A model generated the notes under the pieces. It was not told where the DNA came from and made no database searches. It saw only the letters and a list, made by a program, of their open reading frames with translations. This document shows positions 10-50,761 of a stretch of 64,000 nt of DNA, piece by piece (the stretch's first letter is position 1; each line of letters opens with the position of its first letter). The position numbers were made by a program, and so were the translations under genes. Source of the DNA: Alphaproteobacteria bacterium (GTDB taxonomy: Bacteria; Pseudomonadota; Alphaproteobacteria; Rs-D84); NCBI GenBank assembly GCA_031555055.1, contig JAVBUT010000002.1, positions 210,165-274,164 of the forward strand, read 5' to 3'.

Positions 10-468
10 ATGTATGGCGAATATGAAGAGATTGTTGTGGAAAATCCGGTTGCCAAGTATTCCGGAATGTACGGAAAGTATGCCACGGACAGTGATGTTG
101 AAAAAATAAAGCCCACGCCGATTCGCGCGGCTGCACCGAAACCAAAGGCCGGTGATGCCAAACATCCGGTGCTGGCAAAAAAAGTCATGAAAAAGCCGGT
201 AAAACTATCTGAAACCCCCGTAATTCAGCCGGATCAAAAACAATCGGAAATGCCGGCCCCAATAGTTGTAAAACCGACAATAAAGCCAGAGCCGCAACCA
301 GCGGAAGCCGCGCCCCAGGCAAAAGACATTGCGGATTCGTTAAATAATAAACCGTTTGATGTGGACCAGTATTGCACAAAAATCAATCCGCCGGTGCTGG
401 GGCCGTTGCCGCCGGGACTGGTATTAATGCCAGGACGTCCGGACCAGATGTCCTGTGTTAAAAATTAA
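10..468 (+). CDS. C-terminal part of a proline/lysine-rich hypothetical protein (ORF enters from upstream of the window)
   Basis: Open frame from window edge to TAA at 466-468. Low-complexity P/K-rich composition. No recognisable domain. Confidence 0.35.
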   Translation: MYGEYEEIVVENPVAKYSGMYGKYATDSDVEKIKPTPIRAAAPKPKAGDAKHPVLAKKVMKKPVKLSETPVIQPDQKQSEMPAPIVVKPTIKPEPQPAEAAPQAKDIADSLNNKPFDVDQYCTKINPPVLGPLPPGLVLMPGRPDQMSCVKN

Positions 469-560
469 ATATAATCGTATATCTAAAACCGTTTGGCTCT
501 GGTCATGTATGTCCAATACACTCCCATCGCCAAACGGCTTTAGATATACGATTATATTTA
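469..560 (+). repeat. Long hairpin element (about 29-bp arms, 28-nt loop) immediately after the stop codon; loop carries core catgtatgtccaatacactcc shared with the family-C stop-codon-adjacent elements
   Basis: Left arm atataatcgtatatctaaaaccgtttggc at 469-497 pairs with gccaaacggctttagatatacgattatat at 529-557. Loop core matches 19.7 kb, 42.4 kb and 63.8 kb copies. Confidence 0.6.
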
Positions 561-589
561 ATTTTTATAGTCCGATTTTCAAACAATTT

Positions 590-1794: not shown

Positions 1795-3411
1795 ATGCGT
1801 AATGGCTTATCATCAGATTTAATTGCGCGCATATTGGGCGTGGCGCCAAAGTACACGATTGCGGAACTGGAACAAAAATTCCCGCCGCGCAATCTGCCGG
1901 ACGGCGCCATGGTGACCCGTGCGGCGCCCAGCCCAACTGGATTTATGCATTTAGGGAATTTGTACAGCATGCTGATTGATAAAAAGCTGGCCCAGCAATC
2001 GCACGGCGTTTTTATGCTGCGTATCGAAGATACCGATACGGATCGTGAAATCCCCGGTGCGGTCGATACGATTTTGGACATTGTTGAAAAGTTTAGGCTG
2101 GATATAGACGAAGGTGTTTTAAAAACCGGATTGGAAAAAGGCGCGTATGGGCCGTACACGCAATCACAACGCAAGGAAATTTATCATTCTGTGGCCGCCG
2201 AACTGTTGGCGACAGGCCGCGCGTATCCGTGCTTTTTGACATCGGATGAAATGAATGAAATTCGTGAAACACAAACCAAGGCCGGCATGCCGACCGGAAT
2301 TTATGGCGAATTCGCACGTGACCGGGATATGATGCCGGATGAAATTATTGCAAAAATTGATGCGGGCGTGGTGCCGTCGGTTCGTCTGTATTCGACAGGT
2401 GATCCATCCAAAAAGATTTTTTGCAAGGATGTTGCGCGCGGCTCAATCGCATTCCCGGAAAACAACGACGACGTGGTTTTAATAAAATCAAATGACGGAT
2501 TGCCGACATATCATTTTGCGCACTTGGTTGATGATCATTTTATGCGTACGACGAACGTTGTTCGCGGTGGGGAATGGTTGGCCTCGCTGCCGCTGCATAT
2601 TCAGATGTTCAATATGATGGGCTGGGCCGCGCCGGCGTATTCGCATACGGCGACAATTGACAAAATAGATGATGAGACAGGCAAACAGCGCAAATTATCC
2701 AAGCGCAAAGACCCCGAATCCAGCGTCGCGAACTTTATAACCGAAGGCTGGCCGATAGAGGCCGTATTGGAATACCTGTTCAATCTGGTGGCCAGCGGGT
2801 ATGAAGAAGAAAAAGTTAAAAATCCGTTGATGACCATTTGGGATTATGATTTAAAGTTAAAAAAATTATCGACCAGCGGTGCTTTGTTTGACTGGAAAAA
2901 GCTGGAATGGTGGGGAAAAGAATTTATTGCGACACTGCCGGTGTATGATCTGGTCAATCGCGTAATGGAATGGGTGCACGAATATTCGCCCCAGTGGCAT
3001 GAACGAATCGGGGACAAGATTGATTATCTGACCAAAATTTTGGCGATCGAACGCGATAATCCGAAACGTGTCCGCAAGGACTTTGTCACATGGAAGCAGA
3101 CATTGGAAGAAGTTGCATATTTCTTTGATGATATTTTTGAAAAATCAGAAATCGGAAATCAAAAATCAGAAATTAATAAAAATGCGCTGGATGCATTCCT
3201 GCGCGGGTTTGAATGGACTGACGACAAAGACACATGGTGGAATAAAATTGTAAAAATAGCGTCCGACATTGGTACTAAAAACGGCGATGTCGCGATGAGT
3301 TTGCGCGTCGCGTTAACCGGGCGCACAAACACACCCGATCTTTATTCGATCATGCAGGTCATGGGCGGTGAAAGGGTGATAAAACGCATAGGCAAAATTA
3401 TCAATGGTTAA
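1795..3411 (+). CDS. gltX: glutamate--tRNA ligase (class I, GluRS/GlnRS family)
   Basis: HIGH-type motif PSPTGFMHLGN and KMSKS-type motif KLSKRK. RBS AAGGAAAG upstream. In-frame heptamer insert at 3141-3177 encodes EKSEIGNQKSEI. Confidence 0.85.
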   Translation: MRNGLSSDLIARILGVAPKYTIAELEQKFPPRNLPDGAMVTRAAPSPTGFMHLGNLYSMLIDKKLAQQSHGVFMLRIEDTDTDREIPGAVDTILDIVEKFRLDIDEGVLKTGLEKGAYGPYTQSQRKEIYHSVAAELLATGRAYPCFLTSDEMNEIRETQTKAGMPTGIYGEFARDRDMMPDEIIAKIDAGVVPSVRLYSTGDPSKKIFCKDVARGSIAFPENNDDVVLIKSNDGLPTYHFAHLVDDHFMRTTNVVRGGEWLASLPLHIQMFNMMGWAAPAYSHTATIDKIDDETGKQRKLSKRKDPESSVANFITEGWPIEAVLEYLFNLVASGYEEEKVKNPLMTIWDYDLKLKKLSTSGALFDWKKLEWWGKEFIATLPVYDLVNRVMEWVHEYSPQWHERIGDKIDYLTKILAIERDNPKRVRKDFVTWKQTLEEVAYFFDDIFEKSEIGNQKSEINKNALDAFLRGFEWTDDKDTWWNKIVKIASDIGTKNGDVAMSLRVALTGRTNTPDLYSIMQVMGGERVIKRIGKIING

Positions 3412-7017: not shown

Positions 7018-7161
7018 ATGAAAATGAATAAATTAACTTTATTGTTCGCATTGTTTGCGGTATTGACTGTTGCGGGTTGCTGTAACTGTGAAAAAGAGCC
7101 GATTGTGGAACAAAATCACAAGCTGATCGTTCCGCCGAACTTTGGCAACCAACCAAAGTAA
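7018..7161 (+). CDS. small putative lipoprotein (47 aa, lipobox LTVAGC)
   Basis: Sequence MKMNKLTLLFALFAVLTVAGCCNCEK... preceded by GAAAGGAAATG. Below the ORF-track size cutoff. Confidence 0.4.
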   Translation: MKMNKLTLLFALFAVLTVAGCCNCEKEPIVEQNHKLIVPPNFGNQPK

Positions 7162-7164
7162 ATA

Positions 7165-7274
7165 CTAGCGTATAGCAAATAGCGAATAGTGTGTATCGCT
7201 TAGCTGTTTTTTTGATTGAATCTATGTGCTAATCACTATTCACTATACACTATATGCTATTTGCTATGTGCTAG
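7165..7274. repeat. family-A palindromic element (tagcNNatagc-type arms); imperfect inverted repeat
   Basis: ctagcgtatagcaaatagcgaatagtgtgtat versus the reverse complement of ctaatcactattcactatacactatatgctatttgctatgtgctag. Related copies at 13.47 kb and 45.85 kb. Confidence 0.6.
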
Positions 7275-7316
7275 TTTTTATGTTATAATTAATCCATGAA
7301 GTAATGGAGAGATGTT

Positions 7317-8027: not shown

Positions 8028-8033
8028 AAAAAC

Positions 8034-8104
8034 GTGATTCGTGACTCGTGAATCGTAACTCGTCACGATAACCGCGAATCACGAATTACAAATCACGAGT
8101 TACA
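8034..8104. repeat. heptamer array: 4-5 copies of GTGAnTC followed by 4 inverted copies GAnTCAC, just upstream of tatA; four GANTC sites
   Basis: gtgattc gtgactc gtgaatc gtaactc gtcacga ... gaatcac gaattac aaatcac gagttac. 7-bp periodicity with an inverted-repeat centre. Confidence 0.6.
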
Positions 8105-8126
8105 AAGCGACCATAGGGAGCGTATT

Positions 8127-9597: not shown

Positions 9598-10767
9598 ATG
9601 ACAAAAAACATATATATGGACGCCGCCGCCAGCAGCCTGAAACCACAGTCTGTGATTGATGCGGAAATGGATTTTTTACAAAATCGTTATGCAAACGCCG
9701 GGCGTGGAATATGCGCGCGTGCATCCGCGGTTGACAATATGGTGGCGAATACCCGTGACGCGGTCCGTGATTTTATTGGCGCGTCAAAATCCGACCAAAT
9801 TATTTTTACATCCGGCACCACGGACGGGATGAATAAAATCGCCAAAATGTTAAAAACTTCGTTATCGTTTGACGACAATTCTTTGGTTATGGTGTCCGAT
9901 CTGGATCATCACAGCGCGCGCATGCCGTTTGAAGAAATGCGCCATGGTGCCGGACGTAATTTTGCTGTATGTCCATTGGACAAAGAATTTAACATTGATA
10001 CTGAAAATATCCCGGCCGCCGACGTATTCGTTATTACCGCTATGTCAAACGTGCTGGGGGCGCCCCAGGATGTAAAAAAAATTATATCTGCGGCCCGTGC
10101 AAAAAATCCAGACGTTATAACGGTTGTCGACGCCGCACAATATGTTGCGTATTTGCCAATTGACGTTGCCGATTGGGATTGTGACTTTTTATGTTTTTCC
10201 GGGCACAAGATCGGCGCGGATACAGGTGTTGGTATAATGTATATAAAAGAGCCGAAAAAATGGTTCCCGGCGGAACTTGGTGGGGGCATGGTGTCGCGAA
10301 TAACAGGATCGGACGGATCAAACGACAGCCGATGGATTTTTATGTCCGCACCAGAAAAATTCGAAGCGGGCACATTGCCGCTGACCCAGATCGCGGGGTT
10401 GGTTTCGGCGATAAGGAATCAGGAATCAGGAATCCGCCTCCGCAGATGCTTCGGCGGACAAGTCAGGGATCAGGGATCGAGAATTGTGAGGTATCTGCAT
10501 GATGAGTTGTCAAAAATTGATCGTATAAAAATAATTACCAAACCAGATGCGGCGGTTTTGACATTCGTGGTCGACGGTATGCATGTGCTGGATTTTGGGG
10601 CTTTGGTGGGTGCGTCGGGCGTATGTATCCGCGTTGGAAACATGTGTGCGTCATGGATACATCGTTTATTGGGACAAGACGGCACGATACGGATATCTTG
10701 TGGATTCTGGAACACAATGGATGAAGCAAACGATGTTATTGATATAATAAAAAAGATATTGAAATGA
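9598..10767 (+). CDS. sufS: cysteine desulfurase, class V aminotransferase (SufS/NifS-like)
   Basis: PLP-lysine motif SGHK, TSGTT and class-V pattern. Followed by DUF59 and SufE genes. Carries a composite repeat insert at 10415-10483. Confidence 0.8.
   Translation: MTKNIYMDAAASSLKPQSVIDAEMDFLQNRYANAGRGICARASAVDNMVANTRDAVRDFIGASKSDQIIFTSGTTDGMNKIAKMLKTSLSFDDNSLVMVSDLDHHSARMPFEEMRHGAGRNFAVCPLDKEFNIDTENIPAADVFVITAMSNVLGAPQDVKKIISAARAKNPDVITVVDAAQYVAYLPIDVADWDCDFLCFSGHKIGADTGVGIMYIKEPKKWFPAELGGGMVSRITGSDGSNDSRWIFMSAPEKFEAGTLPLTQIAGLVSAIRNQESGIRLRRCFGGQVRDQGSRIVRYLHDELSKIDRIKIITKPDAAVLTFVVDGMHVLDFGALVGASGVCIRVGNMCASWIHRLLGQDGTIRISCGFWNTMDEANDVIDIIKKILK
10415..10483. repeat. composite GAATCAG-heptamer/core element inserted in-frame in sufS; same core as the miaB copy
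   Basis: ggaatcaggaatcaggaatcc-gcctccgcagatgcttcggcggacaagtcagg-gatcagggatcgag. The reverse complement occurs at 26836-26896. Confidence 0.75.
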
Positions 10768-11836: not shown

Positions 11837-13471
11837 ATGTTTGAAGTAGGAAGGGATATTTTAAAAGGTGGCTTTAAATCCGCGGGCGCGGATGTTGCGT
11901 CACGTGGTCGACTGCGCATTGTATATTCTTTGTTTGTCATCGCATTTTCCATTTTTATTGTGAAAACATTGTGGTTGGGGGTCCAGGGCACAGACCGCGC
12001 ACGCCGCGGCACCGGGGCGGGCGACTGGGTGGTTACGCGCGCCGACATCGTTGACCGAAACGGCGATATTCTGGCCAAAAACATAATGTCCGGGCATATT
12101 ACGCTACGTCCACAACTGGTCAAGGATCGCGATGCTGTCGCAAGATTGATACATCAGACTATGCCAATGGAATACAGTCTGTCGGACGCGCTGGGGATGA
12201 TGAATTCGTCCAGACGATTCATTTATGTTAAAAAGCTGGCCGATGATTCCGCACGCAACGCCGTGGCAAACGCAAAACTGGCGGGATTGGACATAGAGCA
12301 GGTTCAAATGCGTCGTTATCCAAAGCGCCGGCTGTTCTCGCACATTGTCGGATTTGTCGGAAATGACGGACATGGGTTGGAAGGCGCGGAAAGAATATAC
12401 GATAGCTATCTGTCTGAAAATAAAGACCCGTTGCGGCTGTCGCTGGATTCGCGTATACAGTCCGTGTTTTACGAACAGCTGTCCGCGGCAATGCACAAAT
12501 ACCAGGCGAATGCCGCAATGGGCATGCTGATGAACTCACGCACGGGGGAAATGTTGGCGATTGTATCTTTGCCGGACTTTGATCCGGAAAATATTGCGTC
12601 GTCGACAACAGCCAGCCGTATGTTCATGCCATTGCGCGGCGTATTCGAAATGGGGTCCATATTCAAGATATTCAACACTGCCATGGCGTTCGAAAACGGG
12701 ATAAATAAAAAATACTTTGTTGGTACGCCGTACAAGATACCGGACAAATTCGGACGCACGGCTGCGATCATCGGCGATGTCAGCAGTTTGAAAAAAGTCA
12801 CCGACGTGACACCGAATATGTCTGTTCCGGAAATTATGCTGTATTCATGCAACGCGGGGTCTGCCCAGATTGCGTTGGATTTGCCGGACGGGGCCCAGCG
12901 CGAATTCTTTTCACGAATTCATTTGGACGATGCGTTGGATTTGGAATTTGGCCGGACCGAGCGTACATTGTTGCCGATCAAATGGGGACCGGTGGAAAGG
13001 GCGACAGTATCTTTTGGTCACGGTGTATCTGTAACGCCGATGCACGTGATGCTGGGGGTGAACGCTATGACAAACGGCGGGATATTCATATATCCGACGT
13101 TGCAAAAGCGCAGCATTGGTGCCGTCCGCGGCGAACGTGTGGTGTCACCGGACATATCTGCGACATTGCGCGGGATAATGTTCCGCGTCGCAGAAGAAAC
13201 GACCGCGAAACAGGCCAGAATCGCCGGCATTAACATTGGTGGGAAAACATCGACTGCGGAAAAAAGAATAAACGGCGTGATCGATCATAAAAAGAATCTG
13301 ACAGCATTCGTTGGGGCATTTCCGATAGAGGCGCCACAATACACCATACTGATTGTTCTGGACGAACCAAAGGGAACCCAGGAATCATACGGTCTGCGCA
13401 CGGCTGCGTGGAATGCGGTTCCGACCGCCGGCAAGATACTGGACAGCGTGTTGCCAATGCTGTTTGATTAA
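11837..13471 (+). CDS. ftsI: peptidoglycan D,D-transpeptidase FtsI (PBP3)
   Basis: GSIFK (SxxK), YSCN (SxN) and KTST (KTG-like) motifs. N-terminal TM segment. Confidence 0.8.
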   Translation: MFEVGRDILKGGFKSAGADVASRGRLRIVYSLFVIAFSIFIVKTLWLGVQGTDRARRGTGAGDWVVTRADIVDRNGDILAKNIMSGHITLRPQLVKDRDAVARLIHQTMPMEYSLSDALGMMNSSRRFIYVKKLADDSARNAVANAKLAGLDIEQVQMRRYPKRRLFSHIVGFVGNDGHGLEGAERIYDSYLSENKDPLRLSLDSRIQSVFYEQLSAAMHKYQANAAMGMLMNSRTGEMLAIVSLPDFDPENIASSTTASRMFMPLRGVFEMGSIFKIFNTAMAFENGINKKYFVGTPYKIPDKFGRTAAIIGDVSSLKKVTDVTPNMSVPEIMLYSCNAGSAQIALDLPDGAQREFFSRIHLDDALDLEFGRTERTLLPIKWGPVERATVSFGHGVSVTPMHVMLGVNAMTNGGIFIYPTLQKRSIGAVRGERVVSPDISATLRGIMFRVAEETTAKQARIAGINIGGKTSTAEKRINGVIDHKKNLTAFVGAFPIEAPQYTILIVLDEPKGTQESYGLRTAAWNAVPTAGKILDSVLPMLFD

Positions 13472-13766
13472 CCATTAGCGCATAACAAATAGCGTATAGC
13501 GATTAGCAAATAGTTACAGGTGCGAACATTTTGTCGTCATACCGGCGACTTGTCCACCGAAGCCTTGGCGAAGGTCGGAGCGCCTGTATAACGACCAGTG
13601 TGAAATATTTTTATTTTTTACAAAATACCGAATTCGGGTTATTTAAAACACAAATTTTGGAACAGAATATAATAAATAGGAAACGTTTCTTTTGTAATAA
13701 AAGAGGCTTATTCCATAGAAGATGCTATGCGCTAATCGCTATACGCTATTTGCTATGCGCTAATGG
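13472..13766. mobile_element. MITE-like element: about 43-bp near-perfect terminal inverted repeats (family A, tagc-rich) flanking about 210 bp of non-coding sequence
   Basis: ccattagcgcataacaaatagcgtatagcgattagcaaatag at 13472-13514 versus the reverse complement of gctatgcgctaatcgctatacgctatttgctatgcgctaatgg at 13724-13766. The internal ORF 13531-13770 is judged spurious. Confidence 0.65.
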
Positions 13767-13840
13767 TTAATGACTATTAACTATTTGCTATTGATCATTT
13801 AATTGCTATAATAATTCCGATAAGAAAAAAAGAGATTACG

Positions 13841-15607
13841 TTGAGAAAGATAGTAGAAAGATCCATGCTGGGCAAAGCGTGGGTTTGCGCGACAGAGTAT
13901 GAAGAAAACACGCCCAGCAGTACGATTTTAAAAGAAGACTTGTTAAAGAAAATATTGGAATCGCGCGGCGTTCGTAGCGGGGTCGATACCAGCAAGTTTT
14001 TAAATCCCAGCATAAAAGAATACATGCCCGACCCCAGCGTGCTGGCCGATATGGATTCGGCGGCGCGTATAATTGTCGACAATATTGTCGCCGGGCGGAA
14101 AATTGCCATATACGGCGACTATGACGTGGACGGAATAACGTCCAGTGCGATCATGGTGAAATATCTGCGTGCGGTTGGCGCAAACGTCGTATGGCACCTG
14201 CCAACGCGCGAAGGCGAAGGGTATGGTCTGAACTGTGATGCCGTCAGTGCGATCGCCGCGGACGGGGTCAATCTGATCGTGACCGTCGATTGCGGAATCA
14301 GCGGCGTGGAAGAAATTGCGCTGGCTAAAAAACTGGGGCTGGATGTCGTTGTTACCGATCATCATTCGCCTGACGGGAATCTGCCGGCGGCCGACGCGGT
14401 CGTGAATCCCAAACGCCTGGACGATACGTCCGGGATGTCTTATCTGGCGGGTGTCGGCGTGGCTTTTATGACACTGGTCGCCGTGAATAGAGAACTGAAG
14501 TCCAGAAATGACGATAAATTCCAAATTCCGCATTCTTTATTTTTGATCGATCTGATGGATTTGGTCGCGCTGGGGACGATATGCGACACAATGCCGTTGG
14601 TGGGACTGAATCGTGCGTTTGCTGCGACCGGCCTGAAAGTTCTGGCCAAGCGAAACAATGTCGGCCTGCGCGCGTTGATGGATATTGCAGTAATTAAATA
14701 GCAGACCAAATACAGCGTGATGTTCGCGCTGGGGCCGCGGTTGAATGCGGCGGGCCGTCTGGATTCTGCGGCGCCGGCGCTGGAACTGTTGTTGACGGAC
14801 AATATACTGGTCGCGAACGATCTGGCGGCAAAATTAAACCGCATGAACCAGGAACGCATAGATGTTCAAAATGCAATCATGATAAGTGCGACCGAAATGG
14901 CCCAGAAATGTTGCGCTTTGGGAAAATGCAGCCTGTTCGTATGTGGCGATAACTGGCGCACTGGGGTTATGGGGATCATCGCCGGGCGGCTGAAAGACAA
15001 ATATAACCTGCCGACATGTGTTGCGACGAAATGCGACGGCGTGATTGACGGGTCCGGCCGTTCTATACCGGGCGTCGATCTGGGGCGCATTGTCCATGAT
15101 GCGGCGGCATTGGGAATAATCAGCGGCGGCGGCGGCCATGCGGCGGCGGCCGGGTTTACTTTGCCGGCAGAGAATGAACAGAAATTCTGCGAATTTTTGG
15201 AAAAATCCGTCTTGGCGCAGTTGGATGGGAAAATTCCGGAAAACGAAACGGTTGTTGATGCCGAAATGGATGCCGGTGGCGCAACGATGAAGCTGGTGGA
15301 ACAACTGGCGGAACTGGAACCGTTCGGCCAGGCCAATCCGGAACCGACACTGGTACTGCGTGGCGGGACATTGGCCCACGCGACGATAATGGGCAAGGGC
15401 GGAACGCACTTGCGCGGATATATCAATACAGGCAACGGATCGCGCCTGGCGTTTGTGGGATTTAATATGGTCGGGACGCCGGTCGGTGATTTTTTGCTGG
15501 ACGATGCGCATACAAATACTAAAATGATGATGTTGGGAAAGTTAAAGGAAAACGAATACCAAGGCCGCGTATCGGCACAGTTCATTTTGGAAGACTTGGC
15601 AATTTAA
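13841..15607 (+). pseudogene. recJ: recJ single-stranded-DNA exonuclease interrupted by an in-frame TAG at 14699-14701 (two ORFs 13841-14701 and 14717-15607 in the same frame)
   Basis: DHH motifs (YGDYDVDG, DHH) in the first part. Conserved FALGPRLNAAGRL and DHHA1 region in the second part. The frames are identical and separated by a single amber codon. Confidence 0.6.
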
Positions 15608-15637
15608 TGAAGAATGAAAAGTGAAAAATGAAAAATT
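15606..15637. repeat. ATGAAAA-type heptamer array immediately after the recJ stop
   Basis: aatgaagaatgaaaagtgaaaaatgaaaaatt. Confidence 0.55.
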
Positions 15638-15685
15638 AAATTCATTTTGACTTAATGGTTTTTCAAAATAAAAAAAGGAACAGAT

Positions 15686-16312
15686 ATGAAATTTTTTTTA
15701 AAGTCATTATTCATTGTTAGTTTTTCATTTTTTATTCCGACATTTGCGTATGCGTCGGTTGACAAGGCTTTGGTGGATTCGGCTGAAACTTATCTGAATT
15801 CTATCACCGGGCTGAACGGAAAATTTACACAGAATGCGAACGGCAAGAAAAGCAATGGGACATTCGACATGCTGCGCCCGGGCAAAGTTCGCCTGGATTA
15901 CAAAGACATGCCGGTACAGTTGATATCGGACGGTCAGGATTTGTATTTCTTTGACAAGTCGCTGGACCAGATCACGACCGTGCCGCTGACCAGTACGCCG
16001 GCCGGGATATTGGTACGCAAGAACATCAATTTACGCAATGCGGATATCAAGGTAACCGAAACAAAACAGAATGCCAAGACTTTCGCGCTGACCATGCATA
16101 TGCGCGATAATGAAGGTGTCGGCAAAATGACTGTCGTATTCGACAATGCGCCGATAAAGCTGAATTCATGGACGGTGTCGGACGCCACAGGGACCAAGAC
16201 GGATGTGGTATTCAACGATCTGAAAACAAAAACCGATTTTGCAAAAAACTATTTCCAGATACAGCGTCACAAGACTGCGACTACATCCGGCGGCGACAGC
16301 TATTATGATTAA
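15686..16312 (+). CDS. lolA: outer-membrane lipoprotein carrier protein LolA
   Basis: Signal peptide plus LolA pattern F.Q.......G.....RPG..R..Y......SDG..LY.FD..L.Q.T. Confidence 0.7.
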   Translation: MKFFLKSLFIVSFSFFIPTFAYASVDKALVDSAETYLNSITGLNGKFTQNANGKKSNGTFDMLRPGKVRLDYKDMPVQLISDGQDLYFFDKSLDQITTVPLTSTPAGILVRKNINLRNADIKVTETKQNAKTFALTMHMRDNEGVGKMTVVFDNAPIKLNSWTVSDATGTKTDVVFNDLKTKTDFAKNYFQIQRHKTATTSGGDSYYD

Positions 16313-18321: not shown

Positions 18322-19680
18322 ATGAAAAAAAATATTCGGCGATTTTTTATTGCTGTTTCTATCTTATTAAATTTGTCCGCATGTGACCTGCAGCCAAAGA
18401 TTACCGCACTGCCGGATACGGTCGGTGACTTTATATCCACGCGGTATCCGGCATTGCTGGCGGATCCGACAACCCAGCCAGAAATATACGATTCCGCTGC
18501 GACCGATTACGGCGTTTATGCGTCTCCGGAACTGTACGGCACATCCGGTGAATCCAGCATGGATGATTATCTGATGTACGCCAGTGTGGACGATTACACA
18601 TTGCGGCCGCAACAGACCCAGGTTGTCCGGGTTCCGATTATCGAAACAAAATCCGGTCAGACGGTTATTGTCAGCACCCCCAGCCCAATGGACGATTATC
18701 TGATGGTGCCCGCGTACGAGCATGTTGTTCACGACACGGTCGAGGTAATTGTATCCAAAGGCGACACTCTGTATTCCATATCCAAGAAATATTCGACCAC
18801 GGTTGGCGAATTGGCGACGATGAATAAATTGTCCGCGCCATACGCGTTGTCGGTTGGCCAAAAGATAAAAGTTCCGGTGCTGAAGACTGTCCCGGTGATA
18901 GAGCCGGCACCGATCGTCACCGCCGCGCCGATCATGGCGACACCGGTCAAGGCAGAAGTAGTAGAAGTGACCGTTACCAAGGGCGACACATTGTATTCCA
19001 TGTCGCGCAAATATGCTTTGCCGGTCAATGATCTGGCGGTTATGAATAAATTAAAACCACCGTTTACGCTGTCTGTTGGTCAGAAATTAAAAGTGCCAAA
19101 AATAACGGATGTTGCAATGCCGGACAAGACAATCGTGCCGGTGCGAACCACGACTGTGCCGACATCGCCAATTGTCGCGGCATCGCCGACACCGGTGCCG
19201 AAAACGGTAACACCGATACCGGTCAGACCGATTGCAACGCCGGCGCCGGCAAAGGTATCCAGCGCGCCGACCGCGCCATTGCCTAAAATAACATCGCGGT
19301 CATCGTCAAAGTTTTCCTGGCCGGTGCGCGGAACGATATTGTCCGGATATGGCGCAAAATCGACAGGCTTGTTCAACGACGGAATCAATATCGCGGCCAG
19401 TGCCGGCACCAAGGTCGGTGCGGCTGAAAACGGCGTCGTCGCATATGCGGGCAATGAACTGAAAGGTATGGGTAACCTGGTAATCGTCCAGCATTCAGAC
19501 GGCTGGATGACAGTCTATGCGCATATGGACCAGATGTCCGTGCGACGCGGCGTCAAGGTTACCGTGGGTCAGAAAATCGGAACTGTCGGCAAGACCGGCA
19601 AGGTTGACCGTCCGCAACTGCACTTTGAAATCCGCAAGGGAACCAAGGCGTACGATCCGAATGCATATTTAAAGAAATAA
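18322..19680 (+). CDS. nlpD: NlpD-like lipoprotein with two LysM domains and a C-terminal M23 peptidase domain
   Basis: Lipobox LSAC. Two LysM repeats (VSKGDTLYSISKKY...GQKIKVP). C-terminal M23 fold (AYAGNELKGMGNLVIVQH...HFEIRKG). Confidence 0.8.
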   Translation: MKKNIRRFFIAVSILLNLSACDLQPKITALPDTVGDFISTRYPALLADPTTQPEIYDSAATDYGVYASPELYGTSGESSMDDYLMYASVDDYTLRPQQTQVVRVPIIETKSGQTVIVSTPSPMDDYLMVPAYEHVVHDTVEVIVSKGDTLYSISKKYSTTVGELATMNKLSAPYALSVGQKIKVPVLKTVPVIEPAPIVTAAPIMATPVKAEVVEVTVTKGDTLYSMSRKYALPVNDLAVMNKLKPPFTLSVGQKLKVPKITDVAMPDKTIVPVRTTTVPTSPIVAASPTPVPKTVTPIPVRPIATPAPAKVSSAPTAPLPKITSRSSSKFSWPVRGTILSGYGAKSTGLFNDGINIAASAGTKVGAAENGVVAYAGNELKGMGNLVIVQHSDGWMTVYAHMDQMSVRRGVKVTVGQKIGTVGKTGKVDRPQLHFEIRKGTKAYDPNAYLKK

Positions 19681-19800
19681 AATTAAAGACAATGGCACAT
19701 CTGGTGACGGGGCCGGTGGCTTATGTATGTTTAATACACAACGCCATCGGCCTCGCCATCATCTGCACCATTCTTTTTAATTTTAAACAGCAGAGTTTAA
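19681..19800 (+). repeat. family-C stop-codon-adjacent element, diverged copy, directly 3 prime of nlpD
   Basis: taaaattaaagacaatggcacatctgg...ggtggcttatgtatgtttaatacacaacgccatc...cattctttttaattttaaacagc. Homologous to 42437-42565 and 63758-63885. Confidence 0.6.
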
Positions 19801-30689: not shown

Positions 30690-30892
30690 GATTATAACAA
30701 AATGTTCCGTAAGGGACATTTTTTTATAATCTTTGTTGTTTTGTACCATTAAACCGCCCACAGGGATTTGAAGGTACTGAATCCGAGCGTATAAGCACAC
30801 AAAAATTTTCGTTGTTAGAAAATTTTTGATGTGCGCATAGTCGAGGATACGCGGCTCACTTGATAAATATTTACACTTGGGACCAAGCGAGC

Positions 30893-30935
30893 GAAAATCC
30901 CTGTGTCGGCGGTTCGATTCCGTCCCCAGCCACCA
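30893..30935 (+). repeat. direct duplicate of the 3 prime 43 nt of tRNA-Phe (anticodon loop to CCA); att-site remnant
   Basis: gaaaatccctgtgtcggcggttcgattccgtccccagccacca is identical to 30647-30689. Confidence 0.8.
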
Positions 30936-31019
30936 CAAATTTTCGTTATATTTTTGCAAGGCAAAAATTTTAAGAAAATTTAGTGCCCCACGAAGCCTTG
31001 GCGAAGTGGGGCTTTTTGT

Positions 31020-32865: not shown

Positions 32866-33345
32866 ATGATTTTGGCAGATTTCAAGGATTTTCCCCGACA
32901 GGGTCGGGTTATTGGAATAGACTGGGGCGCGCGACGTATCGGCGTCGCGGTGTCTGACGAATCTCGCGAATTTGTGTTCACGCGGGACGTGATAACAATC
33001 AGGAATCGGGAATCCACCGTTGCCAAGGCTTTGGCGGACAAGCCAGGAATCGGTGAAATTATAAAATTGGTAAAATCCGAAAAAATCGTCGGGATAATAA
33101 TCGGCTTGCCGGTGCATGCCGACGGGACGGACTCGGCGACGACAAAAATGGTTCGCGAATTCGCGGACGAATTGTCCGGTCAGACGGATTTGCCGGTCGT
33201 ATTTATCGAAGAGAATTTAACATCGGTCGCCGCAGCGGAGAGGAGTCAGGAGTCAGGAATCAGGAACAAGAATTTTTCGATTGATTCAGAGTCTGCGAAA
33301 ATAATACTGGAAAACGCAATCGCGATGATACGACGAATGGGATAG
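32866..33345 (+). CDS. ruvX: YqgF/RuvC-like Holliday-junction resolvase / pre-16S rRNA nuclease
   Basis: Motifs GIDWGARRIGVAVSD and IIGLP. Two in-frame heptamer triplet inserts at 32996-33017 and 33239-33267. Confidence 0.75.
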   Translation: MILADFKDFPRQGRVIGIDWGARRIGVAVSDESREFVFTRDVITIRNRESTVAKALADKPGIGEIIKLVKSEKIVGIIIGLPVHADGTDSATTKMVREFADELSGQTDLPVVFIEENLTSVAAAERSQESGIRNKNFSIDSESAKIILENAIAMIRRMG

Positions 33346-39839: not shown

Positions 39840-40739
39840 ATGTTTCGTAAAATTTTGATGGCCGCAATGTTCGCAACAGCCGCAGGATACTGCTTTGCGG
39901 CGGATACCGGACTGCCCCAGGTCGTCACATCCGAAGTGTTTTATACCCAAGAAAAATCCGTAAACGAAAACACAGATTATAACACCTATGAAACAAACTA
40001 TGTCGCGCCGGCACCACACGCAGTGCCGACATGGCCGATCGTTGGCACGGACGCGGACACCGCTGTTTCTTGCGGTGCGGGCGGAAATACGGGCGGATGC
40101 GCTGATGACAATATAAAAATAGTTTCTAAAATCGGCGCCGATCTGGTTGTTGAAAATAATTTTAACTTGGGCGGTCACCGCGGTAATGGTGATGGCTGGT
40201 CTGGCGGGGCGAACATGCTGCACGGATTACAAGTGCCGGCCGGATTCGACGACGAATGCAATTCCAGATCGGAAATGCCGCTGATGGGTCGTGAAATGCT
40301 GGAAGACGACGGTGGTGAAGTTCTTGCCGTATCGCGCAGTGCACGCAAAAAATGCGGCAATGCTGGTTCCAATGGGGGTGGCATGACGGGCAAAATGATA
40401 ATCGAAGAAGAAAAAGTAACGGATTACATGGAAATTGCGGTTGATCAGTCCGCCGACGCCGAAGCGCCAAAAGCAATGCAGGACCAGGTTCGTTCATGGG
40501 TTGTGGCATCTGGTCAGACGTTGCGCGAAGTTTTGCAAAACTGGTGCGACAAAGAAGGTTGGGACCTGGTTTGGGCGACACCGCGCGAATACCCGATAGA
40601 GGCCAGCGCCGTATTCAAAGGACGTTTTGTTGATGTGTCCAGTGCACTGGTTCGCAACTTTGGTCGCGCAACACCGGTGCCGTATGCGAAATTCTATAAG
40701 GGAAACCGCGTGCTGGTCGTGTCTACAACCGAAGAATAA
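39840..40739 (+). CDS. TcpQ/PilL-like (type IVb pilus secretin partner) exported protein
   Basis: Signal peptide. C-terminal GQTLREVLQNWCDKEGWDLVW...KFYKGNRVLVVS matches the TcpQ/PilL C-domain pattern (…TLR..L..W...AGW…FY.NRVL.V). Confidence 0.5.
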   Translation: MFRKILMAAMFATAAGYCFAADTGLPQVVTSEVFYTQEKSVNENTDYNTYETNYVAPAPHAVPTWPIVGTDADTAVSCGAGGNTGGCADDNIKIVSKIGADLVVENNFNLGGHRGNGDGWSGGANMLHGLQVPAGFDDECNSRSEMPLMGREMLEDDGGEVLAVSRSARKKCGNAGSNGGGMTGKMIIEEEKVTDYMEIAVDQSADAEAPKAMQDQVRSWVVASGQTLREVLQNWCDKEGWDLVWATPREYPIEASAVFKGRFVDVSSALVRNFGRATPVPYAKFYKGNRVLVVSTTEE

Positions 40740-40743
40740 ATTA

Positions 40744-40773
40744 AATGAAAAATGAAAAATGAAAAGTGAAAAA
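40744..40773. repeat. ATGAAAA-type heptamer array between the TcpQ-like gene and the secretin gene
   Basis: aatgaaaaatgaaaaatgaaaagtgaaaaa. Confidence 0.55.
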
Positions 40774-40828
40774 TAATTCCTTGGTCATTGCATTTTTCCA
40801 AAGACTTGAAACACATAGGTGAGAGAAT

Positions 40829-42436
40829 ATGTACAAGATATTAAAAGTACTTTTCATTTTTAATTTTTCCTTTTTCATTTTGACTGGGTGCGTAAAGAAG
40901 GAATCCGCCCAGGTGGCGTCCGCCGTCGACCAGGACTTTGTCAATGCGCACGATGCGTTCGAAATGGCGAAAAATCCGCGCGCCAAGGTTACCAGCACCG
41001 ATACCGTGTCAATGTCCGAAGGTGTTTGGCTGGGGGCGAAATCCACTTTGCTGGAACATAAAAACAATTTGCCGGGCACATACGAAAATGACACAGGTGT
41101 GACAATCCTGTTGAATGAGCCCGTATCGTTACAGGTTTTGGCCAACAATATTTCATCCATAACGAATATTCCTGTCAAAATCGACAGCCAGGTAAATACT
41201 GAAAAATTAAAAAAGACCATGAATATTGCCTATACCGGCAAGTTGTCTGGTTTGCTGTCCCAGGTTTCGACAGATCTGGATTTGTTGTGGTATTACGACA
41301 AAAGCTCTATCGTGTTTTATGAAACGGAAACAAAAACATTCACACTGTATGCGCTGGGGACGGATGTCGCGTACCAGTCTGTAATCCGTACGGATGACGG
41401 CAACGGCGTTTCATTGGAATCTAATTTAAAAGAATGGGAAGAAGTCGAACGCACGATCGGATCGATTGTCGGCAAAACAGCGAATGCAAACTTTACCGTA
41501 TCTAAAAGCTTGGGCACGATCACGGTTACCGCGCCGCCTTCGATCCAGCACCGCGTCAGCGAATACATCGCACGCCAGAACAAGCGTTTGTCCCAGCTGG
41601 TGACGATCGACGTAAAGGTTCTGCAGGTGTCCATGAACAACAACACCGCGTTTGGCCTGAACTTGGCGATGGCGATTAATTCTGCGGCGGGTCTGAATAT
41701 CGTTGCGAATCCGAAAAACAATCTGCAAACCACCGAAGCCAGCACAATGAATGTCGCGGTGCTGTCGGGATTGTCATTTGCGGACGCTGCAGGCAAGGTT
41801 CCGGCAGGCGCTACACCGGACCAGATCAATTCGGGCAGTCTGAAAAATATCGCAGGAACTGATGCGCTGATCAGTGCGCTGGCCAAGCAAGGCAAAATAT
41901 CGCTGGTGACGAACGTTGGGGTTACGACACGCAACAACCGCGTCGCCCCGGTCAGCAACACCCGCACAACCGGATATATCAAACGTTTTGAATCACGCAA
42001 TTTTACAACTGTCGAATCCAGCACTGTGGACCAGGATGATTTGGAAACAGGATTCAGCATGCAGCTGTTGCCTAATGTTCTGGAAAATGGAAAAATCTTG
42101 TTACTGTTCAAAATGTCGATTCGTGAACTGTTGCAGATGCAGACGCAGAAAATCGGCGAAGTGACATTGCAGTTGCCAGACGTAGAAGAGCGCAGCTTTA
42201 TGCAGGAAGTAATTATGGAATCCGGCCAAATGCTGGTTCTGTCGGGATTTGAACGTCAGACGAACAATGATACGCGTTATGGCTTGGGCGATCCGGACTT
42301 TATGGCGCTGTCGGGTTCGCGCGAATCCCAATCGACCAAGGACGTTTTGGTTGTCATCCTGACACCGCAAGTACTGGTCAGCCCGATGGATGCAGAGCGG
42401 TCTATCCAGCAAAACTGGGGCGCACCACTAAATTAA
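40829..42436 (+). CDS. lipoprotein secretin (type IVb pilus TcpC/BfpB-like, GspD/PilQ superfamily)
   Basis: Lipobox ILTGC. C-terminal secretin domain with conserved ending ...STKDVLVVILTPQVL. Confidence 0.65.
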   Translation: MYKILKVLFIFNFSFFILTGCVKKESAQVASAVDQDFVNAHDAFEMAKNPRAKVTSTDTVSMSEGVWLGAKSTLLEHKNNLPGTYENDTGVTILLNEPVSLQVLANNISSITNIPVKIDSQVNTEKLKKTMNIAYTGKLSGLLSQVSTDLDLLWYYDKSSIVFYETETKTFTLYALGTDVAYQSVIRTDDGNGVSLESNLKEWEEVERTIGSIVGKTANANFTVSKSLGTITVTAPPSIQHRVSEYIARQNKRLSQLVTIDVKVLQVSMNNNTAFGLNLAMAINSAAGLNIVANPKNNLQTTEASTMNVAVLSGLSFADAAGKVPAGATPDQINSGSLKNIAGTDALISALAKQGKISLVTNVGVTTRNNRVAPVSNTRTTGYIKRFESRNFTTVESSTVDQDDLETGFSMQLLPNVLENGKILLLFKMSIRELLQMQTQKIGEVTLQLPDVEERSFMQEVIMESGQMLVLSGFERQTNNDTRYGLGDPDFMALSGSRESQSTKDVLVVILTPQVLVSPMDAERSIQQNWGAPLN

Positions 42437-42565
42437 AATTAAATACAACAACGCATTTGGCGCGATTTGGGGTGGCTTATGTATGTTCAATACACTACGC
42501 CACCCCAAATCACACCAACTACATCATTCTCTTTAATTTTAACAGCCCGGTTTTGGGCCGTTTTT
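42437..42565 (+). repeat. family-C stop-codon-adjacent element directly 3 prime of the secretin gene
   Basis: taaaattaaatacaacaacgcatttggcgcgatttggggtggcttatgtatgttcaatacactacgccaccccaaatcac...cattctctttaattttaacagcccgg. 93% identical to 63758-63885. Confidence 0.75.
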
Positions 42566-45816: not shown

Positions 45817-45845
45817 AAAATCCCGCGATGCGGGATTTTTTAACA

Positions 45846-45931
45846 ATTAGCTCATAGCAAATAACATATAGTGTTTAGCGTATAGTATATTGTTAATCGC
45901 TATGCGCTATATGCTATGGACTATGCGCTAG
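45846..45931. repeat. family-A palindromic element (tagc-rich inverted repeat)
   Basis: ttagctcatagcaaataacatatagtgtttagcgtatag ... ctatgcgctatatgctatggactatgcgctag. Confidence 0.55.
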
Positions 45932-46973: not shown

Positions 46974-47315
46974 ACATCGTAATGTCAATACAGTGTCTAT
47001 ACACGTGGCGGAAATCCGGTAAAAAACCGAATCGGTGTCAAAAAATAAATCTGAAATTTTTCGACCAGAAAAACTTGCAAATCAAAAATAATCTTATAAC
47101 TTAACTGACGTATCCAAACGATTGAGAAATCAATCAGAATATGAACGATAAAGGTTGTAAGAAAAAACAATTTTTTTAATGGCTAAATAAAACCGCCGGT
47201 AAAAAAATTGTTTTTTTCTTAGGTGGTTTTTACAGCCTTGATCAGGATGCGGCAGGAAACTCTGGGGTTGGGCGATATCTGTTGTCGCCATTGGGAACAG
47301 GAAAGGAGAAACAGC

Positions 47316-48590
47316 ATGCAGGCAGCAGCAAAACAAACGGTTACAAATGTGGAATCAATAATGGCGGCAATTGCCGCAAAGATTGATCCCGCGGCGTTTA
47401 AATCCTGGATCGCCCCATGCAAATTATCTGTTCAAAACAATACCCTGTTCATTCATTCTAACAATCAATTTTCCGCCGACTTTATCAAATCCGTTTATTC
47501 CAACACTTTGGGCGACGTCGCCGACGAATTCGGATTGGGTCTGTTCATATGCGTTAACGGCGCATGCGCCCCGGCCGCACGCACGGCAAACGACAATACC
47601 GTAAAAACATTCGTGCCGGCTGCACCGGTTGCCACGACCACAACATTCGATAACTTTATCATATCTGATGAAAACGCATTCGTTGTTTCCGCATGCAAGA
47701 AAATGGCGTCTGGCGCGGCGACTTTTTCACCGCTGTTTATATATGGCGCGGCGGGATGCGGGAAATCATTGCTGGTCGATTGCATTAATTCCGAATCAGC
47801 TGGCCGCACACTGGTCATGACCGGAAACCAGTTTGTTTCCGAATTCCTGCGTGCGATGCGCGAACATTCCGTCTTTGCGTTCAAGGATTTCTGCCGAAAG
47901 TGCGACACATTCATCATGGACGATGTTCATACGCTGGCCGGCAAACGCGCGTCGCTGGACGAATTTATGAATCTGGTTATGGATTTGCGCGCTGCAAATA
48001 AAAATATTGTTCTGACATCGAATGTTGCGCCTGGCGATCTGTCCGGGTTTGACCGCCGTCTGCAATCATTGCTGGCGTCGGGATTGGTCGCAGATGTCGC
48101 GACACCGTCTAAAAATGTTGCGCGCACGATTATGGCGCGTGCCGGCGTTGCGGCGAACGTTGCCGAATATCTAGCGGGCCGCATAAACGGTGACGGTCAC
48201 TTGATTGCGGGCGTTGCCAAAAAAATCAACACGTATGCCGAACTGATGAATTCTTTGGTCACATGCGACGTCGCCGAAAGATTATTGTCTGACACATTGG
48301 TAAAATCCAAGACTCCGCTGGCCATGGTAAAATCCATGTGCGCCAGACTGGGGGTATCGTATGACGCGGTATGCGGAACATCGCGCGTGCGCAATGTCGT
48401 CCGTGCGCGCCAGATTATGATGACCGCGCTGAAGTCTGCGACTTCGCTATCGCTGGCGGAAATCGGACGTCTGGTCGGCGACCGTGATCACGCGACGGTT
48501 CTGTATGCGATTTCGACAACCGCAAAATTAAAATCATCCGATCTGATTCTGGGCGCAGAAATCGACCAGATGATTGCCGAATGCAGATAA
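47316..48590 (+). CDS. dnaA: chromosomal replication initiator DnaA (divergent)
   Basis: TFDNFIISDEN...PLFIYGAAGCGKSLL (Walker A), FIMDDVH (Walker B), arginine finger, and domain IV SRVRNVVRARQIMM...GDRDHATVLYA. RBS GAAAGGAGAAAC. 424 aa. Confidence 0.8.
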   Translation: MQAAAKQTVTNVESIMAAIAAKIDPAAFKSWIAPCKLSVQNNTLFIHSNNQFSADFIKSVYSNTLGDVADEFGLGLFICVNGACAPAARTANDNTVKTFVPAAPVATTTTFDNFIISDENAFVVSACKKMASGAATFSPLFIYGAAGCGKSLLVDCINSESAGRTLVMTGNQFVSEFLRAMREHSVFAFKDFCRKCDTFIMDDVHTLAGKRASLDEFMNLVMDLRAANKNIVLTSNVAPGDLSGFDRRLQSLLASGLVADVATPSKNVARTIMARAGVAANVAEYLAGRINGDGHLIAGVAKKINTYAELMNSLVTCDVAERLLSDTLVKSKTPLAMVKSMCARLGVSYDAVCGTSRVRNVVRARQIMMTALKSATSLSLAEIGRLVGDRDHATVLYAISTTAKLKSSDLILGAEIDQMIAECR

Positions 48591-50759: not shown

Positions 50760-50761
50760 AA

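What the first reader, a model, noticed from the sequence alone, without database searches (positions are those of the whole stretch)
13472..13766. MITE-like element with 43-bp terminal inverted repeats between ftsI and recJ
Near-identical 43-bp arms, ccattagcgcataacaaatagcgtatagcgattagc... and its reverse complement, flank about 210 bp that has no credible ORF. It belongs to a tagc/atagc-rich family with shorter palindromic relatives at 7165-7274 and 45846-45931. The interior contains cgaagccttggcgaag, which also occurs at about 30991. Architecture is that of a non-autonomous transposon, perhaps mobilised by a transposase elsewhere in the genome.
Basis: seen in the sequence. Interest (0 to 1): 0.6.

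Follow-up and report, generated by a model that had tools for sequence, protein, structure and literature searches.

The report
Hairpin built from 7-base repeats
The inverted repeat between ftsI and recJ is real, but its arms are runs of a degenerate 7-base unit, a poorly understood repeat type already known from cyanobacteria and Xanthomonas, and it fails the tests for a miniature transposon that could be run.

Summary
Arms 13467-13513 and 13725-13771 are 47 nt and 44/47 complementary, with 211 nt between them.

The MITE reading is only partly supported. Each arm is a tandem array of six degenerate heptamers: CnnWTAG on the left, CTAWnnG on the right. The right array continues in phase to about 13793, past the end of the inverted repeat.

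The window holds 15 period-7 arrays, against 0-2 for any other period from 4 to 12. Most are intergenic, and many form inverted pairs with unrelated units. The same pattern occurs in related uncultured alphaproteobacteria. TAGC arrays also form inverted pairs in several other phyla.

In 69 of 79 orthologous loci the ftsI-recJ spacer is 39-52 nt, so the element is an insertion or expansion between the ftsI stop codon and recJ's -10 box. No second copy of the interior was found, no unambiguous target-site duplication, and no transposase in the window.

The interior contains a decayed member of an unnamed GC-rich hairpin family that is common in viral contigs.

Best reading: a heptamer-repeat (STRR-like) quasi-palindrome that probably grew in place, with a secondary insertion in its centre. 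It is a new member of a known kind and of moderate interest.

The parts
13467..13513 (+). Left arm of the inverted repeat. It is six heptamer units in the register CnnWTAG (13472-13513), preceded by ATTAA. It overlaps the ftsI stop codon TAA (13469-13471). TAG or TAA recurs every 7 nt, so all three reading frames are closed.
13725..13771 (+). Right arm of the inverted repeat. It is six heptamer units in the register CTAWnnG (13724-13765), followed by TTAAT. 44 of 47 bases are complementary to the left arm, with the unit order mirrored.
13766..13793 (+). Tail of the right-hand array, lying almost wholly outside the inverted repeat (which ends at 13771) and still in phase: TTAATGA CTATTAA CTATTTG CTATTGA. 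It shares CTAATGGTTAWTGACTAT with the array at the same site in relative L124.
13515..13588 (+). GC-rich, Y-shaped interior domain. An outer stem (ACAGGUGCG/CGCCUGU) encloses two hairpins. The + strand folds with z = -2.5 and the - strand with z = -0.9.
13546..13580 (+). Decayed member of an unnamed GC-rich hairpin family: 5' flank GACTTGTCC, then a stem, then the cap CGAAGCCTTGGCGAAG (13558-13573). A second copy of the cap lies in the terminator-like hairpin at 30986-31012.
13589..13724 (+). AT-rich remainder of the interior. It has no significant structure (z = -0.5 and 0.06), no homologue and no family hit.
13785..13812 (+). Predicted recJ promoter: -35 TTGCTA (13785-13790, inside the array tail), 16-nt spacer, -10 TATAAT (13807-13812). 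The -10 box and leader are conserved in all relatives.
7159..7280 (+). Shorter hairpin of the same WTAGY heptamer type. It begins at a stop codon and ends just before a TTGCTA-17-TATAAT promoter-like site.
45846..45931 (+). Shorter hairpin of the same WTAGY heptamer type. It lies between an intrinsic-terminator-like hairpin (45817-45842) and the dprA start at 45954.

Best explanation
The element is a long quasi-palindrome made of short tandem heptamer repeats. This is the class called STRR in cyanobacteria and 'long simple sequence repeats' of 7 nt elsewhere, here present as a convergent inverted pair.

Shown:
- Each arm is an array of six degenerate 7-nt units.
- The arms mirror each other unit for unit.
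- The structure sits between the ftsI stop codon and the recJ -10 box, where most relatives have only about 41 nt.
- This genome and its relatives are full of such arrays, with many different units.

Inferred:
- The arrays grew in place by replication slippage. The likely seed is the ancestral sequence TTGCTATTTGAYTAAT, which is both the last codons of ftsI and the -35 box of recJ, and which already holds two CTAWnnn-like units.
- The two arms are kept complementary by intrastrand template switching, the known quasi-palindrome correction mechanism.
- The 211-nt interior, which carries a GC-rich hairpin of a widely dispersed family, entered the centre later.

Likely consequences, also inferred:
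- ftsI read-through transcripts would end in a stem of about 47 bp, which could block 3' exonucleases or be cut by RNase III.
- Stop codons in all three frames follow ftsI.
- recJ keeps its own promoter, with the -35 box now supplied by the tail of the right array.
For: - Period-7 structure of both arms.
- 15 period-7 arrays in the 64-kb window, against 0-2 for each other period from 4 to 12. In 506 kb of relatives' loci there are 39, against at most 3 for the other periods tested apart from the multiple 14.
- 12 of 19 array segments are fully non-coding, although only 12.6% of the window is non-coding.
- Many inverted pairs exist, with more than 30 different unit types.
- Arm mirroring: 44/47 bases match, and only 2 of 120 unit permutations do as well.
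- The right array continues in phase past the inverted repeat.
- Spacer census: 69 of 79 orthologous loci are 39-52 nt, with conserved TATAAT and leader. All expansions lie between the stop codon and the -10 box.
- Four expanded loci carry heptamer hairpins with other units (WTAGT, AAAGAGT, GTATTCn, GTTAGTG).
- The -35 box falls in the array tail here and in the last ftsI codons in relatives.
- Window units are CnnWTAG/CTAWnnG, while L124 units are TnnWTAG/CTAWnnA. Both arms changed together.
- Literature: 70-75 convergent inverted pairs of heptamer arrays in Xanthomonas, kept at the same sites between species but varying in length and sequence (PMC4692102). Hairpin-forming 7-bp STRRs lie between cyanobacterial genes (PMC2670836). 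Heptamers are the dominant long SSR class, with slippage proposed as the cause (Mrazek 2007, as summarised in PMC4679880).
Against: - Slippage and template switching are inferred, not observed. No population data on unit number were available.
- The window and L124 share an 18-nt stretch of array (17/18), although relatives with empty sites separate them in the FtsI tree. That could mean mobility or recombination rather than growth in place.
- TTAA flanks both arm ends.
- TAGC-type inverted pairs in other phyla have a strong polarity: 17 in the order TAGC-array then GCTA-array, against 1 in the reverse order. Simple slippage does not predict this.
- Only 64 kb of the source genome could be searched.
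- There is no expression evidence for any RNA-level role.
Confidence: 0.55

Rival explanations
1. It is a non-autonomous transposon (MITE). The heptamer arrays would be subterminal arrays of transposase-binding sites pointing inward, and the element would be mobilised by a transposase encoded elsewhere.
For: - The element is absent from the orthologous site in most relatives.
- Related array sequence lies at the same site in L124, while that lineage's nearest relatives have empty sites.
- TTAA lies at both ends.
- Cross-phylum TAGC pairs show 17:1 inward polarity, as expected for transposon ends.
- Three loci in the window share the unit type.
Against: - No second copy of the interior in the window or in 1.36 Mb of loci.
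- No viral-contig hit to the terminal 23-mer.
- The array continues beyond the inverted repeat.
- Adjacent spacers carry the same architecture with unrelated units.
- No transposase among 58 ORFs scanned in the window.
- TTAA is palindromic, so it is not a diagnostic target-site duplication.
- The sister lineage L121 keeps a possible relic (TAAATGGTT), which fits decay in place.
Confidence: 0.2
2. It is a selected cis-acting RNA structure in the ftsI 3' UTR. The 47-bp stem would stabilise or process the ftsI transcript (RNase III target or 3' exonuclease block) and insulate it from recJ. This can be true together with the main explanation.
For: - Very stable fold.
- The stem starts at the stop codon, and no intrinsic terminator is present.
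- Arm complementarity is kept while unit sequences differ between the window and L124.
- The literature proposes transcript stabilisation or termination for STRR hairpins (PMC2670836).
Against: - Most relatives lack it, so it is not needed for ftsI or recJ expression.
- A similar pair at 50755-50989 lies between two convergent terminators, where little transcription is expected.
- Both strands fold equally well.
- There are no expression data.
Confidence: 0.25
3. The interior encodes a small RNA with its own promoter, and the arms only flank it.
For: - The GC-rich domain folds as a Y shape, with z = -2.5 on the + strand.
- Its hairpin cap belongs to a family with covarying stems.
Against: - No Rfam match, even at E = 10.
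- No convincing promoter or terminator inside.
- No homologue of the interior in any relative.
- The stem of the window's hairpin copy is degraded, with two bulges.
Confidence: 0.05
4. The arrays are binding sites for a protein that reads one unit per subunit. One model is an RNA-binding protein that recognises UAG every 7 nt, as HutP does in Bacillus (own knowledge). Another is a DNA-binding protein.
For: - UAG or UAA recurs every 7 nt in the left arm.
- The polarity of TAGC pairs is directional.
Against: - The same genome has arrays with many unrelated units, so one specific binder cannot explain the class.
- No candidate protein was identified.
- HutP is a Bacillus protein, and no homologue was tested for.
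Confidence: 0.05

Closest known systems
Convergent inverted pairs of heptameric simple sequence repeats (GGGAATC) in Xanthomonas (Rehm et al. 2015, PMC4692102)
   Same: Both are tandem 7-nt units, mostly intergenic, that often occur as two arrays on opposite strands able to form a stem-loop. Sites are conserved between relatives while length and sequence vary. Function is unknown.
   Different: The units here are A/T-rich WTAGY types, not G-rich, so G-quadruplexes are not an issue. Many unit families coexist. This copy has a 211-nt interior holding another repeat.
Cyanobacterial STRR (short tandemly repeated repetitive) heptamers that form hairpins between genes
   Same: Both have 7-bp units, several families per genome, an intergenic position near 3' ends, and hairpin potential. 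Proposed roles are transcript stability or termination (PMC2670836). From my own knowledge, Elhai et al. 2008 reported small dispersed repeats embedded in such arrays, and Vioque 1997 found STRRs lengthening a helix of RNase P RNA.
   Different: The host is an uncultured alphaproteobacterium labelled Rickettsiales, and the unit sequences differ. The two papers cited from memory could not be read here.
MITEs (miniature inverted-repeat transposable elements)
   Same: Both are about 300 bp, have terminal inverted repeats, encode nothing, lie between genes and are absent from orthologous sites.
   Different: The arms are tandem arrays without a sharp outer edge. No multiple copies, no unambiguous target-site duplication and no partner transposase were found.
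REP / REPIN / BIME elements
   Same: Both are intergenic, hairpin-forming repeats placed after genes and built as mosaics. The GC-rich hairpin in the interior behaves like a REP-type unit: a conserved motif with covarying stems at gene boundaries.
   Different: There is no conserved GTAG head on the arms, no RAYT gene in the window, and the arms are periodic arrays rather than single palindromes.
TAACTGA direct heptamer repeats of Beggiatoaceae, cyanobacteria and Bacteroidetes (MacGregor 2015, PMC4679880)
   Same: Both are intergenic heptamer arrays with a scattered cross-phylum distribution and no known mechanism.
   Different: Those are almost all direct repeats just upstream of start codons, with one unit type dominating. 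Here inverted pairs and many unit types are the rule.

Membership tests
MITE | Terminal inverted repeats with defined outer ends | tested here: inconclusive
   A 47-nt inverted repeat is present. However, the arms are tandem heptamer arrays, and the right array continues in phase about 22 nt beyond the repeat.
MITE | Target-site duplication flanking the TIRs | tested here: inconclusive
   Only TTAA occurs at both ends. It is palindromic and is equally well read as part of the inverted repeat. No other direct repeat flanks it.
MITE | Multiple copies with the same ends and interior in the genome | tested here: not met
   There is no second copy in the 64-kb window or in 1.36 Mb of fetched loci, and no viral-contig hit to the terminal 23-mer.
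MITE | A related autonomous element or transposase | tested here: not met
   No transposase, integrase or Y1/RAYT domain was found in 58 window ORFs. This could not be tested genome-wide.
MITE | Presence/absence polymorphism at orthologous sites | tested here: met
   69 of 79 orthologous loci have a 39-52 nt spacer.
Heptameric SSR / STRR-type repeat (inverted pair) | Tandem units of 7 nt | tested here: met
   Tandem Repeats Finder and the repeat finder report periods 7, 14 and 28 in both arms. Units are listed.
Heptameric SSR / STRR-type repeat (inverted pair) | Many arrays per genome, period 7 strongly over-represented, mainly intergenic | tested here: met
   The window has 15 arrays of period 7, against 0-2 for other periods. 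Relatives have 39, against at most 3. 12 of 19 array segments are non-coding, although only 12.6% of the window is non-coding.
Heptameric SSR / STRR-type repeat (inverted pair) | Arrays occur as convergent pairs able to form stem-loops | tested here: met
   There are eight or more pairs in the window. The arrangement matches that described for Xanthomonas.
Heptameric SSR / STRR-type repeat (inverted pair) | Length and sequence vary between relatives at the same site | tested here: met
   Window and L124 arrays at the same site share 17/18 of one stretch, but differ in unit sequence, unit number and loop.
REP / REPIN | Short imperfect palindrome with a conserved GTAG-type head, hundreds of copies, and an associated RAYT gene | tested here: not met
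   The arms are periodic arrays, and there is no RAYT in the window. Copy number could not be tested genome-wide.
Intrinsic terminator | GC-rich stem followed by a U tract | tested here: not met
   The terminator scan found none in 13300-13950, and no T run follows the right arm.
Any Rfam RNA family | Covariance-model match at or above the gathering score | tested here: not met
   The only hits in the window are two tRNAs. Nothing credible appears at the locus even at E = 10.

The most novel reading that the evidence does not exclude
Heptamer-array hairpins (arms of directional 7-nt units around a GC-rich hairpin core) could be an undescribed class of self-propagating or enzymatically generated element that spreads within and between bacterial phyla.

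Three results do not exclude this:
- TAGC-type inverted pairs in unrelated phyla show 17:1 polarity.
- The same ftsI-recJ site is occupied repeatedly by hairpins with different units.
- The window and L124 share an 18-nt array segment, although empty-site relatives separate them.
Probability: 0.12. Interest if true: 0.75.

Novelty: new member of a known kind. Interest (0 to 1): 0.4.

Why it matters
Heptamer repeats are the most common long simple-sequence repeat in bacteria, yet their origin and function are unknown. The 2015 Xanthomonas paper states that no detailed literature on them existed at that time.

This locus is a clean comparative case. There are about 80 orthologous sites. Most are empty, and several are filled independently by hairpins built from different units.

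The arms here change together, and the flanking promoter has been rebuilt from repeat sequence. That makes the locus useful for testing whether such hairpins arise by slippage plus template switching or by some form of mobility.

For annotation, it is a warning that 'terminal inverted repeats' made of tandem units should not be called MITEs.

Tried and rejected
- Rfam at gathering threshold on the whole window, and at E = 10 on the locus: only chance-level hits.
- BLAST of the element against plasmids and phages: nothing.
- Exact-protein look-ups to recover the source contig failed for FtsI, for its database twin P0001 and for the truncated RecJ. One Logan contig from the same strain was found, but it ends inside another heptamer array.
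It showed the cross-phylum spread but did not find the source genome.
- blastn and tblastx of the interior against all fetched DNA: no homologue.
- Intrinsic-terminator reading: rejected, because there is no U tract.
- Small-RNA reading of the interior: no support.
- Literature searches for the array sequences and for the 16-mer as text strings: no paper.
- Elhai 2008 could not be fetched.
- Searching plasmids with the GC-hairpin consensus gave only a few unannotated intergenic hits.
- I first read the consistent C-G versus T-A difference between window and L124 units as compensatory selection. I withdrew that, because amplification of different seed units followed by mirroring explains it equally well.
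- I first took the element to be ancestral to window, L121 and L124. Three further relatives with empty sites made that ambiguous.

Full report
**1. The observation**

The sequence between the FtsI/PBP-type gene (11837-13471, +) and recJ (13841-15607, +) contains a long inverted repeat. The arms are 13467-13513 and 13725-13771. They are 47 nt long, 94% complementary, and 211 nt apart.

The region folds with z-scores of -10.9 (+ strand) and -11.8 (- strand) relative to dinucleotide shuffles. The only ORF in the interior is a 79-aa TTG-start frame that runs into the right arm and matches nothing.

The shorter TAGC-rich palindromes at 7159-7280 and 45846-45931 are real, and so is the second copy of the 16-mer at 30991.

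**2.

Both arms are tandem arrays of a degenerate heptamer.
- Left: CCATTAG CGCATAA CAAATAG CGTATAG CGATTAG CAAATAG (13472-13513).
- Right: CTATGCG CTAATCG CTATACG CTATTTG CTATGCG CTAATGG (13724-13765).

The right array continues in phase as TTAATGA CTATTAA CTATTTG CTATTGA, up to about 13793. That is beyond the end of the inverted repeat.

The arms mirror each other unit for unit. 44 of 47 bases match, and only 2 of 120 permutations of the units do as well.

**3. It is one of many such arrays**

A simple autocorrelation scan finds 15 period-7 arrays in the 64-kb window, against 0-2 for every other period from 4 to 12. Twelve of 19 array segments are wholly non-coding, although only 12.6% of the window is non-coding.

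Many arrays form inverted pairs in intergenic spacers, and they use unrelated units:
- AATGAAA/TTTTCAT at 15604-15737, 40736-40883 and 50755-50989.
- TAGTCAT at 62396-62544.
- CGTGAnT at 8029-8106.

Contexts differ. Some pairs lie between a terminator and the next promoter. One lies between two convergent terminators. Two enclose a ribosome-binding site and pair with the signal-peptide codons of the next gene.

**4. The organism and the orthologous site**

The FtsI protein has hundreds of relatives at 50-81% identity in metagenome-assembled genomes. These are labelled Rickettsiales or Alphaproteobacteria bacterium.

I collected 79 loci with the conserved order sufS-sufE-(small ORF)-ftsI-recJ-lolA. 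In 69 of them the ftsI-recJ spacer is 39-52 nt. It reads: stop codon, a few bases, TATAAT, a short conserved leader, then a GTG or TTG start. The -35 box (TTGCTA or TTGATA) lies in the last codons of ftsI.

Ten loci have longer spacers, and every expansion lies between the stop codon and the -10 box. Four of these carry heptamer hairpins with other units: WTAGT in L124, AAAGAGT in L154, GTATTCn in L159 and GTTAGTG in L173. Three carry a different palindromic element of about 110 nt.

The window's 369-nt spacer is therefore an insertion or expansion at a site that is repeatedly occupied.

**5. History at this site**

The array in L124 shares CTAATGGTTAWTGACTAT (17/18) with the tail of the window's right array. 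The two stand at nearly the same distance from the -10 box.

L121 is the window's closest relative and has a 52-nt spacer. Its extra bases include TAAATGGTT, which may be a relic. On that basis I first took the array to be ancestral to all three.

Three further relatives (L324-L326) have pristine 40-41-nt spacers. They group with L124 in the FtsI tree and partly in the RecJ tree. Internal branches are short, and the two trees disagree. Inheritance with losses, parallel growth from the same seed, and transfer all remain possible.

The ancestral sequence TTGCTATTTGAYTAAT already contains two CTAWnnn-like units, so it could seed such arrays.

Window units are CnnWTAG/CTAWnnG and L124 units are TnnWTAG/CTAWnnA. 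Both arms changed together in each lineage.

**6. Tests of the transposon reading**

- No other copy of the interior, or of interior plus arms, exists in the window or in 1.36 Mb of fetched DNA.
- The terminal 23-mer has no exact match in viral contigs. The whole element has no BLAST match in plasmids or phages.
- The only flanking repeat is TTAA, which is palindromic and therefore uninformative.
- None of 58 window ORFs scanned is a transposase, integrase or Y1 enzyme. The window is housekeeping DNA near dnaA and dnaN.
- The rest of the source genome was out of reach, so the copy-number test is incomplete.

**7. The interior**

Positions 13515-13588 fold into a Y-shaped GC-rich domain on the + strand (z = -2.5; - strand z = -0.9). 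The remaining 135 nt are AT-rich and unstructured.

The 16-mer shared with 30991 is the cap of a hairpin: stem, GAA, GC, CUUG loop, GC, GAA, stem.

The same 16-mer occurs 114 times in viral contigs. In 36 of 100 distinct occurrences all five flanking positions pair, against a shuffle mean of 4.4 and a maximum of 13. There is clear covariation: at -2/+17, GC 14 and TA 14; at -5/+20, TA 16 and CG 12. The 5' flank GGRCYTGYCC is conserved.

The window's copy (GGCGACTTGTCCAC-cap-GTCGGAG) is nearly identical to one viral copy (GGCGACCTGTCCAC-cap-GTGGAAAG), but its stem is degraded.

The family is not in Rfam, and I found no paper containing the sequence. These hairpins sit at gene boundaries in either orientation, as REP-type elements do.

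I read the interior as a later insertion into the centre of a pre-existing heptamer hairpin. This is an inference. It rests on L124 having a loop of only about 12 nt at the same site.

**8. Beyond this lineage**

Matches fell in Acidobacteriota, Cyanobacteria, Bacteroidota, Saccharibacteria, Actinobacteria, Bacillota and other phyla.

About a fifth of those arrays have an inverted partner within 450 nt, often around a GC-rich hairpin. The order is TAGC-array then GCTA-array in 17 cases and the reverse in 1. All three TAGC loci of the window follow the majority order.

Across the window and its relatives, the 5' arm carries stop codons in more reading frames than the 3' arm in 15 loci, against 4 the other way. 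I have no explanation for either bias.

**9. Comparison with what is known**

Heptamers are the dominant class of long simple-sequence repeats in bacteria, and polymerase slippage has been proposed as the cause (Mrazek 2007, as summarised in PMC4679880).

Rehm et al. describe 70-75 convergent inverted pairs of GGGAATC arrays per Xanthomonas genome. These are kept at the same sites between species while length and sequence vary, and their function is unknown (PMC4692102).

Hairpin-forming 7-bp STRRs between cyanobacterial genes have been suggested to stabilise transcripts or to terminate transcription (PMC2670836).

The present element meets every feature of this class that I could test. It fails or leaves open the features that define a MITE.

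**10. Verdict**

The inverted repeat is real and far beyond chance. It is best described as an STRR-like heptamer-repeat quasi-palindrome. It most likely arose and is maintained in place by slippage and template switching, and it carries a secondary insertion that contains a REP-like hairpin.

Its probable effects are a long stem at the 3' end of ftsI transcripts, stop codons in all frames after ftsI, and a recJ promoter whose -35 box now comes from repeat sequence.

A mobile-element origin is not excluded; I give it about 0.2. Novelty: new member of a known, poorly understood kind. Interest: 0.4.

Noticed in passing
window 459-567, 19678-19785, 42433-42542, 63757-63866; L124 4627-4735; the ftsI-recJ spacers of L164 and L169: A second repeat family of about 110 nt. 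It is a palindrome placed right after stop codons, with ends AAATTAAA...TTTAATTT and a conserved apical segment YCATGTATGTTCAATACACTACG. Its stems differ between copies but stay complementary (for example GGGGTGGC/GCCACCCC and ATGCCCC/GGGGCAT). It has no Rfam match. It is a better MITE/REP-like or structured-RNA candidate than the target.
   Followed up: partly
window 13546-13580 and 30986-31012; viral loci L210-L323: An unnamed GC-rich hairpin family: 5' flank GGRCYTGYCC, a covarying 5-bp stem, and the cap CGAAGCCTTGGCGAAG. There are 114 exact cap matches in viral contigs, and 36 of 100 distinct ones are fully paired, against 4.4 expected. The hairpins sit at gene starts or ends in either orientation. 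The family is not in Rfam.
   Followed up: partly
window 14699-14701: recJ has an in-frame TAG where L121, L122 and L124 have a conserved Lys codon (IKK becomes IK*). The rest of the gene is well conserved. This could be a recent pseudogene, an assembly error or read-through.
   Followed up: partly
window 10411-10478 (inside sufS, 9598-10767); L121 1662-1702; L160 340-380; L169 1093-1137: Heptamer arrays lie inside a coding gene, at the same codon position of sufS in different lineages but with different units. The window has AGGAATC x3, a GC hairpin and TCAGGGA x2. L121 has GAGCACA x4, and L160 and L169 have GAGCATA. Other single arrays lie inside ORFs at 657-690, 3140-3175, 33237-33272 and 56977-57012.
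   Followed up: partly
window 15604-15737 and 40736-40883: AATGAAA arrays upstream of lolA and of a secretin-family gene pair with TTTTCAT-like arrays that encode the signal peptides. The resulting hairpin encloses the ribosome-binding site and start codon.
   Followed up: no
L001-L120 (genome-contig hits); window TAGC loci: Inverted pairs of TAGC heptamer arrays in unrelated phyla are ordered TAGC-array then GCTA-array in 17 cases, against 1 in the reverse order. In the window and its relatives, the 5' arm carries stop codons in more frames than the 3' arm in 15 loci, against 4. Both biases are unexplained.
   Followed up: partly
window 30879-30935: A tRNA-like 3' end (GGTTCGATTCC...CCACCA) matches the tmRNA model only weakly (10.3 bits, E = 0.05), and ARAGORN does not call it. 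It may be a divergent or two-piece tmRNA, and it is followed by the terminator-like hairpin that shares the 16-mer.
   Followed up: partly
L209 (Logan SRR23967709) = window 57959-62530: A short-read contig from another sample is 100% identical to the window over 4572 nt. It ends inside the heptamer array at 62491-62544, so these arrays break short-read assemblies.
   Followed up: yes
window 47223-48590, 51093-53120 (-), 62639-63757: dnaA, a gyrB-type gene and dnaN lie in the window, so it is probably close to the replication origin. No mobile-element genes were found in the window.
   Followed up: no
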